Part shown: piece after piece, positions 35,943-36,963 of the stretch
How positions within the stretch are numbered: the stretch's first letter is position 1
Layout of the letters: every line of letters starts with the position of its first letter
DNA from: Escherichia phage vB-Eco-KMB40
Reading direction: 5' to 3' (one strand)
Sequence record: OR539220.1
DNA length: 64,000 bases
Program-made: the position numbers and the translations under genes
The notes under the pieces: model-generated
Database searches by the model: none
What the model saw: only the letters and a program-made list of their open reading frames with translations
Told to the model about the DNA's origin: nothing

Positions 35943-36018
35943 TGGTCGAGGCAGTAGGGATCGAACCTACGACCCAGGACTTAGAAGGTCCTTGCTCTTC
36001 CTTCTGAGCTATGCCCCG
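35943..36018 (-). tRNA. tRNA-Arg (anticodon UCU)
   Basis: Manual fold: 7-bp acceptor, D arm GCTC/GAGC, anticodon loop CTTCTAA, T loop TTCGATC, CCA encoded. Confidence 0.85.
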
Positions 36019-36022
36019 TAAT

Positions 36023-36098
36023 TGGGGTGACCGATGGGAGTCGAACCCATGACTACGAGAATCACAATCTCGAGTTCTACCAACTGAACTACGGCCAC
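36023..36098 (-). tRNA. tRNA-His (anticodon GUG)
   Basis: Manual fold: canonical arms, anticodon loop TTGTGAT, discriminator C, CCA encoded. Confidence 0.8.
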
Positions 36099-36212
36099 AT
36101 TAATACCTACTCCAACAATCAAGATGTCTTCACACGAAATTAAGAGAAGAGTGATCAGTTCAACCCCTATAATCGCGTCAAGTAGATATTAATGTGACAG
36201 TTGTCACAAATT

Positions 36213-36287
36213 TGGCGGACGTGATAGGATTCGAACCTATAACCAATCGCTTAACAGGCGATCGCTCTGCCATTGAGCTACACATCC
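36213..36287 (-). tRNA. tRNA-Asn (anticodon GUU)
   Basis: Manual fold: D arm GCTC/GAGC, anticodon loop CTGTTAA, T loop TTCGAAT, CCA encoded. Confidence 0.8.
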
Positions 36288-36291
36288 AAAT

Positions 36292-36378
36292 TGGTGGGGA
36301 GTGATGGAGTCGAACCACCCGAGTCGCAATGACAATGAATTTACAGTCCACACCGCTACCTCTACGGGATAACTCCCC
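36292..36378 (-). tRNA. probable tRNA-Tyr (anticodon GUA), long variable arm
   Basis: Canonical acceptor, anticodon arm (loop CTGTAAA) and T arm; 15-nt variable arm; D arm non-canonical (4 nt between acceptor and D stem). Confidence 0.6.
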
Positions 36379-36390
36379 TAATTCATAATT

Positions 36391-36465
36391 TGGTGGCCCT
36401 GGGTGGAATTGAACCACCATCTGGCGATTATGAGTCGCTTGCTTGAACCTTCCAGCTACAGGGCC
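36391..36465 (-). tRNA. tRNA with CAU anticodon (Met, or Ile if C34 is modified as in T4 tRNA-Ile)
   Basis: Manual fold: anticodon loop CTCATAA, T stem GGTGG/CCACC, CCA encoded. Confidence 0.75.
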
Positions 36466-36466
36466 T

Positions 36467-36542
36467 TGGTGCTGATTGACGGAATCGAACCGCCGACATC
36501 CTCATTACAAGTGAGGTGCTCTACCTACTGAGCTAAATCAGC
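36467..36542 (-). tRNA. tRNA-Thr (anticodon UGU)
   Basis: Manual fold: canonical cloverleaf, anticodon loop CTTGTAA, CCA encoded. Confidence 0.85.
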
Positions 36543-36547
36543 AAAAC

Positions 36548-36637
36548 TGGCGGAGGCGATAGGATTTGAACCTATGAGTCGCCGGAGCGACTGCCGGTTT
36601 TCAAGACCGGTGCATTAAACCACTCTGCCACGCCTCC
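36548..36637 (-). tRNA. tRNA-Ser (anticodon UGA), long variable arm
   Basis: Manual fold: anticodon stem CCGGT/ACCGG, loop CTTGAAA, 18-nt variable arm, CCA encoded. Confidence 0.85.
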
Positions 36638-36639
36638 AG

Positions 36640-36713
36640 TCTCCGCGGCAGGATTTGAACCTACGACATTCTGCTCCCAAAGCAGACGCTCTACCAAACT
36701 GAGCTACACGGAG
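36640..36713 (-). tRNA. tRNA-Pro (anticodon UGG)
   Basis: Manual fold: anticodon loop TTTGGGA, T loop TTCAAAT; CCA not encoded. Confidence 0.85.
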
Positions 36714-36723
36714 TAAATTAAAT

Positions 36724-36797
36724 TGGAGCGGATAATGAGAATCGAACTCACATCATCAGATTGGAAGTCTGAGGTAATACCATTATACGATATCCGC
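36724..36797 (-). tRNA. tRNA-Gly (anticodon UCC)
   Basis: Manual fold: acceptor GCGGATA/TATCCGC, anticodon loop CTTCCAA, CCA encoded. Confidence 0.85.
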
Positions 36798-36802
36798 AAA
36801 TT

Positions 36803-36889
36803 TGGTGCGAGAAGTGGGACTCGAACCCACAAGGAAATCATTCCGCAGCATTTTAAGTGCTGTGCCTTTACCAATTTGACCATTCTCGC
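36803..36889 (-). tRNA. tRNA-Leu (anticodon UAA), long variable arm
   Basis: Sequence GCGAGAATGGTCAAATTGGTAAAGGCACAGCACTTAAAATGCTGCGG...GTGGGTTCGAGTCCCACTTCTCGCACCA matches T4 tRNA-Leu as recalled. Confidence 0.9.
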
Positions 36890-36890
36890 G

Positions 36891-36963
36891 CTGGGAATAA
36901 AGGACTCGAACCTTTGCATCTAGCAGTCAAAGTGCTATGCCTTACCAACTTGGCTAATTCCCA
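36891..36963 (-). tRNA. tRNA-Gln (anticodon UUG)
   Basis: Manual fold: anticodon loop CTTTGAC, T arm AAAGG-TTCGAGT-CCTTT; CCA not encoded; first tRNA of the cluster. Confidence 0.85.

What the first reader, a model, noticed from the sequence alone, without database searches (positions are those of the whole stretch)
35943..36963. Expanded tRNA cluster: eleven tRNAs with Tyr(GUA), Asn(GUU) and His(GUG) in addition to the T4 set
Manual folding gives Gln, Leu, Gly, Pro, Ser, Thr, a CAU tRNA (Ile/Met), Tyr, Asn, His and Arg on the minus strand. T4 is recalled to encode eight (Gln, Leu, Gly, Pro, Ser, Thr, Ile, Arg) with the homing endonuclease segB inside the cluster; here no segB-like ORF is present and three extra tRNAs occupy the Ile-Arg interval. 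The Tyr candidate has a non-canonical D arm and may be non-functional.
Basis: partly seen in the sequence, partly recalled or inferred. Interest (0 to 1): 0.5.

Follow-up and report, generated by a model that had tools for sequence, protein, structure and literature searches.

The report
Standard eleven-gene tRNA operon, T4-like phage
The window holds the eleven-tRNA gene array that hundreds of sequenced T4-like coliphages carry, so it is real but already known; laboratory T4 is the unusual one, because a homing-endonuclease cassette replaces part of its array.

Summary
ARAGORN finds exactly eleven tRNA genes on the minus strand at 35943-36963, in the order Gln-Leu-Gly-Pro-Ser-Thr-CAU-Tyr-Asn-[114-nt spacer]-His-Arg. 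There is no segB-like ORF.

The array is not new. About 235 GenBank phage records hold most of this region, and the best are 95-99% identical with the same eleven tRNAs annotated. Tyr, Asn and variant Met/Arg genes were described for T2L, RB1 and RB3 in 2008.

"T4 set plus three" is too simple. The CAU and Arg genes are not the T4 alleles (47/74 and 51/75 identical), and Pro is divergent, so the whole distal module differs.

The Tyr gene is odd but functional. It fails the Rfam tRNA model. Covariation in 24 homologues supports a normal cloverleaf with two extra nucleotides before the D stem. It is 86/87 identical to T6 tRNA-Tyr, which is expressed and counters the Septu defence.

Two side observations are less ordinary. 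The spacer is a conserved, unannotated 17-bp-stem RNA leader that always abuts tRNA-His, with the same architecture as T5 "RNA III". The His gene has T, not G, at position -1.

The parts
36890..36963 (-). tRNA-Gln(UUG), first gene of the array
   Evidence: ARAGORN. Rfam tRNA 66 bits. 73/73 identical to the T4 gene.
36803..36889 (-). tRNA-Leu(UAA), class II
   Evidence: 87/87 identical to T4.
36724..36797 (-). tRNA-Gly(UCC)
   Evidence: 74/74 identical to T4.
36639..36713 (-). tRNA-Pro(UGG), a divergent allele with no encoded CCA
   Evidence: 62/74 identical to T4 Pro; the differences are concentrated in the anticodon and T stems.
36548..36637 (-). tRNA-Ser(UGA), class II, followed by CCAG as in T2L
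   Evidence: 87/87 identical to T4 over the T4 annotation. The CCAG tail is and PMC2330249.
36467..36542 (-). tRNA-Thr(UGU)
   Evidence: 76/76 identical to T4.
36391..36465 (-). Elongator-type tRNA with a CAU anticodon, probably the AUA-reading tRNA-Ile2 type; not the T4 allele
   Evidence: 47/74 identical to T4 Ile. The closest E. coli gene is a lambdoid-prophage tRNA annotated tRNA-Ile, 81.6% identical, with an identical anticodon stem-loop and a near-identical acceptor stem, one base different. G1-C72 is paired, so it is not an initiator. ATA codons are 3.1x the E. coli frequency and ATG 0.93x.
36292..36378 (-). tRNA-Tyr(GUA), class II, phage-type with a 4-nt connector before the D stem
   Evidence: ARAGORN. 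Fails the Rfam tRNA threshold. 86/87 identical to T6 tRNA-Tyr.
36213..36287 (-). tRNA-Asn(GUU); carries the SegB recognition consensus
   Evidence: 74 bits. GGTTCGAATCC ... CCAA is present. The Asn gene is the preferred SegB site in T2L, RB1 and RB3 (PMC2330249).
36099..36212 (-). Structured leader of tRNA-His. The 5' arm is about 36180-36196 and the 3' arm about 36096-36112 (its last 3 nt are nt 1-3 of tRNA-His). The arms enclose a roughly 65-nt interior.
   Evidence: RNA fold -36.9 kcal/mol, z = -5.28. 17-bp stem, 96% paired across 9 distinct variants, 4 compensatory pairs, slid controls 40-53%. The same architecture occurs in four T4-like genera and IMG/VR contigs and in T5 RNA III.
36023..36098 (-). 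tRNA-His(GUG), with C73 but T at position -1 (no encoded G-1)
   Evidence: 65 bits. Aligned with E. coli hisR, which has G at -1. T at -1 in all 12 T4-like variants and in T5.
35943..36018 (-). tRNA-Arg(UCU), not the T4 allele
   Evidence: 64 bits. 51/75 identical to the T4/T6 Arg gene.
35574..35924 (-). 116-aa ORF of unknown function between tRNA-Arg and rnaD; absent from T4
   Evidence: ORF list. phrog_3355, E = 1e-54, unknown function. No Pfam match. Annotated next to tRNA-Arg in the relatives examined.
35462..35574 (-). Homologue of T4 rnaD (species 2 stable RNA)
   Evidence: blastn against T4 rnaD: 79% over 118 nt, E = 3.5e-18. T4 annotation.
35316..35455 (-). Homologue of T4 rnaC (species 1 stable RNA)
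   Evidence: blastn against T4 rnaC: 98.6% over 140 nt.
35242..35265 (-). Terminator-like hairpin with a T run downstream of rnaC; probable end of the tRNA/stable-RNA transcription unit
   Evidence: Consensus scan: 10-bp stem with 7 G-C pairs, followed by TTTTT. It lies in sequence homologous to the T4 region just downstream of rnaC.

Best explanation
This is the homing-endonuclease-free, eleven-gene form of the tRNA operon of T4-like coliphages (genus Tequatrovirus). The eleven genes lie head to tail on one strand with 0-12 nt spacers, apart from one 114-nt structured leader before tRNA-His. They are followed by a small ORF, the stable RNAs rnaD and rnaC, and a terminator-like hairpin. By analogy with T4, they are presumably transcribed as one or two polycistronic precursors and cut out by host RNases (inferred, not shown here). 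Function is most likely twofold. (i) The tRNAs add decoding capacity for codons that this 35% G+C phage uses far more than E. coli does: AGA, AUA, GGA, UCA, ACA, UUA, and Tyr and Asn codons overall. (ii) They replace, or compete with, host tRNAs that tRNA-cleaving defence systems destroy. This has been shown experimentally for the near-identical T6 tRNA-Tyr against Septu and for T5 tRNA-Tyr against retron-Eco7. It has also been shown for T5 tRNA-Asn and tRNA-Thr against PARIS, although T5 Asn is only 55/75 identical to the gene here. Laboratory T4 differs because a cassette of T4-type Ile, segB and T4-type Arg occupies the place of the CAU-Tyr-Asn-leader-His-Arg-ORF module. The Asn gene here carries the sequence that SegB prefers to cut, so this array would be a recipient in a mixed infection with T4.
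For: Identity and anatomy. Genomic setting: the flanks are 94-98% identical to T4 and T6, and the stretch 36445-35575 has no T4 counterpart. rnaC and rnaD are present, and a terminator-like hairpin follows. Commonness: 235 phage records hold at least 80% of the 1.5-kb region, and the 27 best cover 99-100% in one piece at 95.4-98.7% identity; the one inspected in full (ph0021) has all eleven annotated. 186 records hold at least 80% of Tyr-Asn-leader-His, one of them 100% identical. Codon demand: AGA 5.5x, ATA 3.1x, GGA 2.9x, TCA 2.8x, ACA 2.7x, TTA 2.1x, Tyr 1.62x and Asn 1.55x relative to recalled E. coli values. Defence role: T6 tRNA-Tyr is 86/87 identical. It is seen on Northern blots and rescues T6 from Septu when overexpressed. 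Deleting the T6 tRNA region increases Septu sensitivity, and T4, which lacks Tyr, cannot escape (PMC13096335). PARIS AriB targets host tRNA-Lys, Thr(UGU) and Asn(GUU), and the T5 versions rescue (PMC12409363). SegB relation: GGTTCGAATCC...CCAA lies in the Asn gene, and Asn is the preferred SegB site in segB-less relatives (PMC2330249). Relatives with an endonuclease or insert ORF in the array each lack one tRNA: RB18 lacks Pro, a51 lacks Gln, VIPECOOM01 lacks Thr. Host RNase III is involved in maturation of T4 tRNAs (PMC4810235 citing McClain 1979).
Against: Nothing here measures expression, processing or aminoacylation in this phage. Codon supply does not explain His, since His codons are 0.76x the E. 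coli frequency. It also does not explain the absence of tRNA-Lys, although Lys has the largest excess among the seven amino acids compared (1.69x). No defence system that targets tRNA-His during phage infection was found in the literature searched. Only colicin E5 cuts Tyr, His, Asn and Asp (PMC1635277), and it is a bacteriocin, not a phage defence. Septu also cleaves T6 tRNA-Tyr, which protects only when amplified or overexpressed, so a single-copy gene may give little protection. The E. coli codon frequencies used are recalled values, not computed here.
Confidence: 0.8

Rival explanations
1. The tRNA-Tyr candidate is a decaying pseudogene or a false ARAGORN call. The effective array would then have ten tRNAs.
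For: It fails the Rfam tRNA gathering score. In ARAGORN's fold the D stem has a C.C mismatch and a G.U pair, and the anticodon stem has two G.U pairs. Some GenBank records label the homologue tRNA-OTHER or tRNA-Pseudo. T6 tRNA-Tyr looked relatively unstable in fragment sequencing (PMC13096335).
Against: 24 distinct homologues from T4-like, rV5-like, T5-like, FelixO1-like and uncultured phages keep every stem 97.6-100% paired, and 15 pairs show compensatory double changes. A D stem shifted by two nucleotides pairs in 24/24 sequences and puts A14, G18-G19 and A21 in canonical positions. A73 and CCA are encoded. The T6 gene, 86/87 identical, is expressed and active against Septu. The T5 homologue (76/87 identical) is annotated as converting to an effective amber suppressor.
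Confidence: 0.04
2. The extra tRNAs give no selective benefit. They are passengers of the mosaic, endonuclease-driven gene traffic in this region, and the array composition is historical accident.
For: The region is a recombination and homing hot spot. T4, T6, RB18, a51 and VIPECOOM01 each have a different insertion and a different tRNA loss. T4 and T6 are viable with 8 and 7 tRNAs. The T4 tRNA region is non-essential (PMC2330249). The leader-His unit and the Tyr gene occur in unrelated tRNA arrays of other genera, which fits modular transfer.
Against: The individual genes show strong purifying selection on structure across phage families. The Tyr-Asn-leader-His segment is at least 95% identical in about 380 records. 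Experimental benefit has been shown for T6 Tyr and for T5 Asn and Thr.
Confidence: 0.12
3. The three extra tRNAs form a coherent set. All have G-U-N anticodons, the queuosine family that colicin E5-type anticodon nucleases cut. They are kept together to survive such a nuclease.
For: Tyr(GUA), Asn(GUU) and His(GUG) are three of the four substrates of colicin E5, which cuts between Q34 and U35 (PMC1635277). They are adjacent in the array. Related Klebsiella, Enterobacter and Erwinia T4-like arrays also carry Asp(GUC) alongside Asn and His, and all but the Enterobacter array carry Tyr.
Against: The literature searched describes no phage-defence nuclease with this specificity. The phage anticodon loops were not compared systematically with the host loops. 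His travels with its own leader as a separate module, combined with different neighbours in other genera. T6 and T2L carry Tyr without His. The grouping may simply reflect that each of these amino acids has a single host isoacceptor.
Confidence: 0.1

Closest known systems
The tRNA gene cluster of phage T4 (eight tRNAs, segB, rnaD, rnaC)
   Same: Same genomic position, between the e.8 side and the trna.2-4/ip side, with flanks 94-98% identical. Gln, Leu, Gly, Ser and Thr are identical. rnaC is 98.6% and rnaD 79% identical. Same strand and tandem layout.
   Different: No segB. The CAU and Arg tRNAs are different genes, and Pro is a divergent allele. Tyr, Asn, a structured leader, His and a 116-aa ORF are added. 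A 171-aa ORF lies upstream of Gln, and a 157-aa ORF lies downstream of rnaC.
segB-less tRNA regions of T2L, RB1 and RB3 (Brok-Volchanskaya et al. 2008, PMC2330249)
   Same: No segB. Met(CAU), Tyr, Asn and a variant Arg are present in place of the T4 Ile-segB-Arg stretch. Extra ORFs of unknown function are present. Ser is followed by CCAG. The Asn gene carries the preferred SegB site.
   Different: The paper does not mention tRNA-His (0 occurrences). The leader-His unit therefore appears to be additional in this window's lineage. The T2L, RB1 and RB3 sequences themselves were not available here for alignment.
Annotated eleven-tRNA arrays of GenBank Tequatrovirus genomes (for example ph0021, Sf21, Sf22, Sa45lw; RB18 with segB in place of Pro)
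   Same: Same eleven genes in the same order, 95-99% identical over 1.5 kb. The Tyr-Asn-leader-His segment is 100% identical in vB_EcoM-Sa45lw.
   Different: No record is identical over 20 kb; the best are 96-98%. The leader is unannotated in all 40 records listed, out of 355 with a match.
T6 tRNA-Tyr and T5 tRNA-Tyr (anti-Septu and anti-retron-Eco7 tRNAs; PMC13096335, PMC11555353)
   Same: 86/87 identical to T6 and 76/87 to T5. Same 4-nt connector, D arm and variable arm family.
   Different: In T6 the gene sits next to segB and can be amplified by it. Here there is no segB, so that escape route is not available in cis. Activity against Septu was not tested for this allele; its single difference turns a T-stem G-C pair into G.U.
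T5 RNA III - tRNA-His unit (stable RNA of unknown function abutting tRNA-His in NC_005859)
   Same: A roughly 100-nt RNA whose two ends form a 16-17-bp stem. It closes a multi-hairpin interior and ends directly at the 5' end of a tRNA-His gene that has T at -1 and C73.
   Different: No convincing sequence similarity in the leader. The His genes are only 50/76 identical. Stable accumulation of the T4-like leader has not been shown.

Membership tests
T-even (Tequatrovirus) tRNA operon | Located at the T4 tRNA locus, between the e.8/rnaC-rnaD side and the trna.2-trna.4/internal-protein side | tested here: met
   Flanks align to T4 and T6 at 94-98%. rnaC and rnaD are found. The annotated neighbours in relatives match.
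T-even (Tequatrovirus) tRNA operon | Shares the proximal T4 tRNA genes | tested here: met
   Gln, Leu, Gly, Ser and Thr are 100% identical to T4; Pro is 62/74.
T-even (Tequatrovirus) tRNA operon | Co-transcription and RNase P/III/E processing of a polycistronic precursor | not testable with these tools
   Inferred from the one-strand tandem layout with 0-12-nt spacers and from the T4 literature.
Canonical tRNA (Rfam RF00005) | Score at or above the family gathering threshold (29 bits) | tested here: met
   Ten genes score 59-75 bits.
Canonical tRNA (Rfam RF00005), Tyr gene only | Score at or above the family gathering threshold | tested here: not met
   Not listed at the gathering threshold. 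The best clan match is tRNA-Sec at 29.9 bits against 47. The likely cause (inferred) is a 4-nt connector before the D stem, where the standard is 2 nt.
Phage tRNA-Tyr family (T6/T5 type) | Cloverleaf maintained by compensatory substitutions across homologues | tested here: met
   24 sequences. The acceptor, anticodon, variable and T stems are 97.6-100% paired, and 15 pairs carry double changes. The shifted D stem is 100% paired, against 57% for ARAGORN's register.
Phage tRNA-Tyr family (T6/T5 type) | Expressed, and counteracts PtuAB-type nucleases that cleave tRNA-Tyr | not testable with these tools
   Shown for T6 (86/87 identical) and for T5 in PMC13096335 and PMC11555353. Not shown for this allele.
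Bacterial tRNA-His | Genome-encoded G at position -1, opposite C73 | tested here: not met
   Position -1 is T, and C73 is present. E. coli hisR has G at -1. T at -1 also occurs in all 12 T4-like variants, in T5 and in several other phage His genes.
Bacterial tRNA-His | GUG anticodon and standard cloverleaf | tested here: met
   ARAGORN and Rfam, 65 bits.
tRNA-Ile2 (CAU anticodon converted to lysidine, reads AUA) | Elongator CAU tRNA that resembles known Ile2 genes rather than Met or fMet | tested here: inconclusive
   The closest E. coli gene is a prophage tRNA annotated tRNA-Ile, 81.6% identical, with an identical anticodon stem-loop and a near-identical acceptor stem (one base different). 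G1-C72 rules out an initiator. ATA codons are 3.1x enriched. However, relatives are annotated either Met or Ile, and lysidine formation cannot be tested here.
SegB homing target | GGTTCRANTCC motif followed by CCAR at the 3' end of the tRNA-Asn gene | tested here: met
   GGTTCGAATCCTATCACGTCCGCCAA. Consensus from PMC2330249. Cleavage itself was not tested.
T5 RNA III-like leader of tRNA-His | [quoted passage not shown] | tested here: met
   for the window and the T4-like variants; for T5.
T5 RNA III-like leader of tRNA-His | Sequence homology to T5 RNA III, and accumulation as a stable RNA | tested here: inconclusive
   The alignment shows no convincing similarity outside the tRNA. Stability is not testable here.

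The most novel reading that the evidence does not exclude
The 114-nt spacer is not a spacer. It is a conserved structured RNA that is functionally coupled to tRNA-His. In T4-like phages of at least four genera, and in T5, a roughly 100-nt RNA closed by a 16-17-bp stem ends exactly at the 5' end of a tRNA-His gene that lacks the encoded G-1 and has U-1 instead. The stem even pairs with nucleotides +1 to +3 of the tRNA. The most novel reading not excluded is that this leader directs an unusual 5' maturation that leaves the extra -1 nucleotide HisRS needs, without the G-1:C73 pair that normally guides RNase P. One possible route is RNase III cleavage; another is a shifted RNase P cut. Alternatively, the leader itself accumulates as a stable regulatory or decoy RNA, a T4-like counterpart of T5 RNA III.
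Probability: 0.3. Interest if true: 0.5.

Novelty: already known. Interest (0 to 1): 0.2.

Why it matters
As a discovery the array matters little, because it is the common, already annotated configuration of T4-like coliphages. It matters in three smaller ways.

- It shows that laboratory T4 is a poor reference for this locus. T4's eight-tRNA set is the product of a SegB-linked cassette.
- The extra genes are of current interest in phage-defence research. Near-identical or related phage Tyr, Asn and Thr tRNAs counter Septu, retron-Eco7 and PARIS. Phages with this array may therefore plate differently on hosts that carry defence systems, which is relevant to choosing therapy phages.
- Two small anomalies found on the way are cheap to test and are unannotated in the database records inspected: a tRNA-Tyr with two extra connector nucleotides, and a tRNA-His without G-1 that is always preceded by a structured leader.

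Tried and rejected
- **Pseudogene reading of Tyr.** Rejected on covariation and on identity to T6.
- **ARAGORN's D-arm register for Tyr.** Rejected in favour of a register shifted by two nucleotides: 57% against 100% of cells paired.
- **Spacer as a sigma-70 promoter.** The consensus scan found nothing on the minus strand inside the spacer, and the count for the region equals the shuffled expectation. The TTGACG motif seen in the window is not conserved in the Klebsiella and Erwinia variants.
- **Spacer as a degenerate tRNA or a known RNA family.** No Rfam match at E up to 10, and ARAGORN finds nothing there.
- **Spacer as analogous to the T4 tRNA-Gln leader, a suspected RNase III site.** The Gln leader in the window folds into a different, shorter 11-bp hairpin with a weaker z-score of -2.57. 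No analogy is claimed.
- **Strict link between U-1 and a long-stem leader.** Rejected. Several other phage His genes with T at -1 have short, different upstream sequences, and some genes with G at -1 have long-range pairing.
- **Function of the three flanking ORFs.** PHROGs gives only families of unknown function, and Pfam gives nothing.
- **Literature searches.** A search for a published description of Tequatrovirus Tyr/Asn/His arrays by keyword returned only mitochondrial papers. Searches for T5 RNA III and for phage tRNA-His lacking G-1 found nothing relevant in the held library.
- **Large protein and structure searches.** Not used, because the question concerns RNA genes.
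Full report

Yes. ARAGORN run on the whole 64-kb window finds eleven tRNA genes and no others. In transcription order they are Gln(UUG), Leu(UAA), Gly(UCC), Pro(UGG), Ser(UGA), Thr(UGU), a CAU tRNA, Tyr(GUA), Asn(GUU), His(GUG) and Arg(UCU). Spacers are 0-12 nt, except for 114 nt between Asn and His.

The Rfam tRNA covariance model accepts ten of the genes at 59-75 bits, against a gathering score of 29. The Tyr gene does not reach the threshold. Its best match is the related tRNA-Sec model at 29.9 bits, against a gathering score of 47.

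There is no segB-like gene. T4 segB DNA has no blastn match in the window. The SegB proteins of T4 and RB18 and two other insert ORFs give only chance-level tblastn hits elsewhere. The ORFs listed inside the array are spurious frames across tRNA genes.

**2. What is the window, and how common is the array?**

The window comes from a T4-like coliphage of the genus Tequatrovirus. Over 20 kb the best GenBank matches are 96-98% identical, and none is identical.

A 1.5-kb query across the array matches 965 phage records, and 235 of them hold at least 80% of it in one place. The best 27 cover 99-100% in one piece at 95.4-98.7% identity. ph0021, inspected in full, has all eleven tRNAs annotated; other close records include Sf21, Sf22 and Aplg8.

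The Tyr-Asn-spacer-His segment alone is 100% identical in vB_EcoM-Sa45lw and at least 95% identical in about 380 records.

The core of the arrangement was published in 2008. T2L, RB1 and RB3 lack segB and carry tRNA-Met(CAU), Tyr, Asn and an Arg isoacceptor in its place, together with ORFs of unknown function (PMC2330249). The array is therefore known, and T4 is the atypical relative.

**3. Correcting "T4 set plus three"**

Pairwise alignment with T4 shows that Gln, Leu, Gly, Ser and Thr are identical. Pro, however, is a divergent allele (62/74). The CAU tRNA (47/74) and Arg (51/75) are different genes from T4 Ile and Arg.

A regional comparison shows homology to T4 from 38440 to 37584 and from 37069 to 36446. 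Homology then stops until 35574, where rnaD begins. The whole distal module therefore has no T4 counterpart: CAU, Tyr, Asn, spacer, His, Arg and a 116-aa ORF at 35574-35924 (phrog_3355, unknown function).

rnaC (35316-35455, 98.6% identical) and rnaD (35462-35574, 79% identical) follow. After them comes a terminator-like hairpin at 35242-35265.

T6 is intermediate. Its order is Gln, Leu, Gly, a Pro/Thr chimera, T4-type Ile, Tyr, segB and T4-type Arg.

Other relatives each carry a different endonuclease or insert ORF at the cost of one tRNA:

| Relative | Inserted gene | tRNA lost |
|---|---|---|
| RB18 | segB | Pro |
| a51 | HNH endonuclease | Gln |
| VIPECOOM01 | ORF (phrog_16521) | Thr |

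The window's array has no such insertion. From this I infer that it is the uninvaded form, and that the shorter arrays are derived by endonuclease-linked replacement.

Consistent with this, the Asn gene here ends with GGTTCGAATCC...GCCAA. That matches the published SegB consensus GGTTCRANTCC...CCAR, and the Asn gene is SegB's preferred cut site in segB-less phages.

**4. Is tRNA-Tyr functional?**

ARAGORN's fold gives a weak D stem: U.G, C-G, a C.C mismatch, C-G, and G at position 14.

I collected 81 distinct phage tRNA-Tyr(GUA) genes from an IMG/VR pattern scan plus fetched loci. Twenty-four of them belong to the window's family. They come from T4-like, rV5-like (FV3, 95% identical), T5-like (87%), FelixO1-like and Klebsiella Jiaodavirus phages and from uncultured contigs.

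On their alignment, the acceptor, anticodon, variable-arm and T stems are 97.6-100% paired, and 15 pairs carry compensatory double changes. Slid controls give 42-57%. For the D arm the two registers compare as follows:

| D-stem register | Cells paired | Detail |
|---|---|---|
| ARAGORN's | 57% | C.C mismatch in 24 of 24 sequences |
| Shifted by two nucleotides (C-G, C-G, G-C, U.G) | 100% | Pairs in 24 of 24; one pair switches C-G to U-A in two sequences; A14, G18-G19 and A21 fall in canonical positions |

The anomaly is therefore best described as a normal D arm preceded by a four-nucleotide connector (U, A, N, N) where two is standard. That probably explains the low covariance-model score and the "tRNA-OTHER" and "Pseudo" labels in some GenBank records.

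There is also functional evidence from relatives:
- The window's gene is 86/87 identical to T6 tRNA-Tyr. T6 tRNA-Tyr is detected by Northern blot and rescues T6 from the Septu system when overexpressed.
- Deleting the T6 tRNA region increases sensitivity to Septu, and T4, which lacks the gene, cannot escape (PMC13096335).
- The T5 homologue (76/87 identical) is annotated in the T5 record as converting into an effective amber suppressor.

The pseudogene reading is therefore very unlikely.

**5. The CAU tRNA**

It has a paired G1-C72, so it is not an initiator. Its closest E. coli relative is a lambdoid-prophage gene that NCBI annotates as tRNA-Ile. That gene is 81.6% identical, with an identical anticodon stem-loop and an acceptor stem that differs at one base. 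ATA codons are 3.1 times as frequent in the window's ORFs as in E. coli (recalled values), while ATG is 0.93 times. An AUA-reading Ile2 identity is the better guess, but relatives are annotated both ways and the modification cannot be tested here.

**6. Why these tRNAs?**

Codon counts over 67 ORFs of the window (35% G+C), relative to recalled E. coli frequencies, are as follows:

| Codon or amino acid | Frequency relative to E. coli |
|---|---|
| AGA | 5.5x |
| ATA | 3.1x |
| GGA | 2.9x |
| TCA | 2.8x |
| ACA | 2.7x |
| TTA | 2.1x |
| CAA | 1.6x |
| CCA | 1.6x |
| Tyr (all codons) | 1.62x |
| Asn (all codons) | 1.55x |
| His (all codons) | 0.76x |
| Lys (all codons) | 1.69x |

Codon supply therefore fits most of the array, including Tyr and Asn. 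It does not fit His. It also does not explain why Lys, which has the largest excess among the seven amino acids compared, has no tRNA in the array.

The second, newer explanation has direct experimental support in close relatives. Phage Tyr tRNAs counter Septu and retron-Eco7. PARIS AriB cuts host Lys, Thr(UGU) and Asn(GUU) tRNAs, and the T5 versions rescue.

The three "extra" tRNAs all have G-U-N anticodons, which is the substrate set of colicin E5. I record this as a low-confidence rival explanation, because no phage-defence nuclease with that specificity turned up in the literature searched.

**7. The spacer is a conserved structured leader of tRNA-His**

The 114 nt between Asn and His fold at -36.9 kcal/mol, with z = -5.28 against shuffles. 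The fold is a 17-19-bp A/U-rich stem. Its 5' arm lies at about 36180-36196. Its 3' arm lies at about 36096-36112 and runs into the first three nucleotides of tRNA-His.

The spacer is found in 355 phage records, and it is unannotated in all 40 records listed.

Ten distinct versions come from Tequatrovirus, Jiaodavirus, Karamvirus, Winklervirus and IMG/VR contigs. All keep the stem, while the 60-80-nt interior differs completely between lineages. In every case the element sits directly upstream of the same tRNA-His type, whatever tRNA precedes it.

On an alignment of the two arms, 96% of cells pair and four pairs show compensatory changes. Slid controls give 40-53%.

Phage T5 has the same layout. 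Its annotated "RNA III, stable RNA with unknown functions" (106 nt) ends exactly at tRNA-His and folds into a 16-bp terminal stem around a multi-hairpin interior. No convincing sequence similarity to the T4-like leader is detectable.

**8. tRNA-His lacks an encoded G-1**

E. coli hisR has G at -1, and the phage gene has T, while C73 is kept. T at -1 holds in all twelve T4-like variants and in T5. The T5 tRNA-His annotation starts at that T, and the gene is noted as converting into an effective suppressor.

In a biased sample of 39 distinct phage His genes, 21 have T at -1 and 17 have G. U-1 is therefore recurrent in phages, and it is not strictly tied to a long-stem leader.

How such a tRNA acquires the extra 5' nucleotide that HisRS normally needs is not known to me. 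The need for G-1 is established knowledge (for example PMC3245924 and PMC10100707, abstracts). The adjacency of a long duplex suggests a processing role for the leader, but that is only a hypothesis.

**9. Verdict**

The most likely function is a co-transcribed tRNA operon that both matches the phage's codon demand and buffers tRNA-targeting host defences. The array is also a natural recipient for SegB homing.

The side observations on the His leader, on U-1 and on the Tyr connector are the only parts with some novelty, and all are directly testable.

Noticed in passing
window 36099-36212 (minus strand); arms at about 36180-36196 and 36096-36112: The Asn-His 'spacer' is a conserved structured RNA. 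[quoted passage not shown] This holds in four T4-like genera and in IMG/VR contigs. It is unannotated in all 40 records listed, out of 355 GenBank records with a match. It has the same architecture as T5 'RNA III' (a stable RNA of unknown function), which likewise abuts T5 tRNA-His.
   Followed up: yes
window 36098-36099 (position -1 of tRNA-His); also L143 10284 (T5): The tRNA-His gene has T instead of the bacterial G at position -1, and C73 is kept. The same is true in all 12 T4-like variants, in T5, and in 21 of 39 distinct phage His genes sampled. How the -1 nucleotide needed by HisRS is supplied is unexplained.
   Followed up: partly
window 36355-36371 (5' part of tRNA-Tyr); alignment A6: The phage tRNA-Tyr family has a four-nucleotide connector (U A N N) between the acceptor and D stems, where two is standard. 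With that shift the D arm is canonical and pairs in 24/24 homologues. This probably explains why covariance models under-score it and why some records call it pseudo or OTHER.
   Followed up: yes
window 34683-34706 and 35242-35265; ORF 34714-35187: Two near-identical terminator-like hairpins (AGTCCCGACCAAAAGGTTGGGGCT and AGCCCCGACCGAAAGGTTGGGGCT, each followed by TTTTTGG) flank a 157-aa ORF (phrog_2280, unknown function) that T4 lacks. T4's single copy of this sequence aligns to both. The ORF therefore looks like a cassette inserted with duplication of the hairpin.
   Followed up: partly
window 37050-37565 and 35574-35924: Two further ORFs absent from T4 bracket the array. One is 171 aa (phrog_2290), upstream of Gln. 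The other is 116 aa (phrog_3355), between Arg and rnaD. [quoted passage not shown]
   Followed up: partly
L021 2643-2717 (T6 NC_054907 66642-66716): The T6 gene annotated tRNA-Thr begins with the 5' end of tRNA-Pro (TCCGTGTAGCTCAG...) fused to the body of Thr. This suggests a deletion of Pro-Ser by recombination between the similar 5' segments.
   Followed up: no
L002 (RB18), L144 (a51), L145 (VIPECOOM01): In otherwise identical arrays, a different inserted gene replaces exactly one tRNA: segB replaces Pro, an HNH endonuclease replaces Gln, and a phrog_16521 ORF replaces Thr. The array is a hot spot for endonuclease-linked replacement.
   Followed up: partly
window 36194-36207 (minus strand): The palindrome GTGACA-AC-TGTCAC lies directly after tRNA-Asn. 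Its second half overlaps the 5' arm of the His leader, so it could form an alternative small hairpin. It is present in Tequatrovirus but not in the Jiaodavirus or Winklervirus leaders.
   Followed up: no
search results: Records named 'Pseudomonas phage PsgM02F' and 'Campylobacter phage A12a' carry sequences 94-99% identical to coliphage tRNA regions (PsgM02F to this array over 1.5 kb; A12a to the Tyr gene only). The host labels in these records may be unreliable.
   Followed up: no
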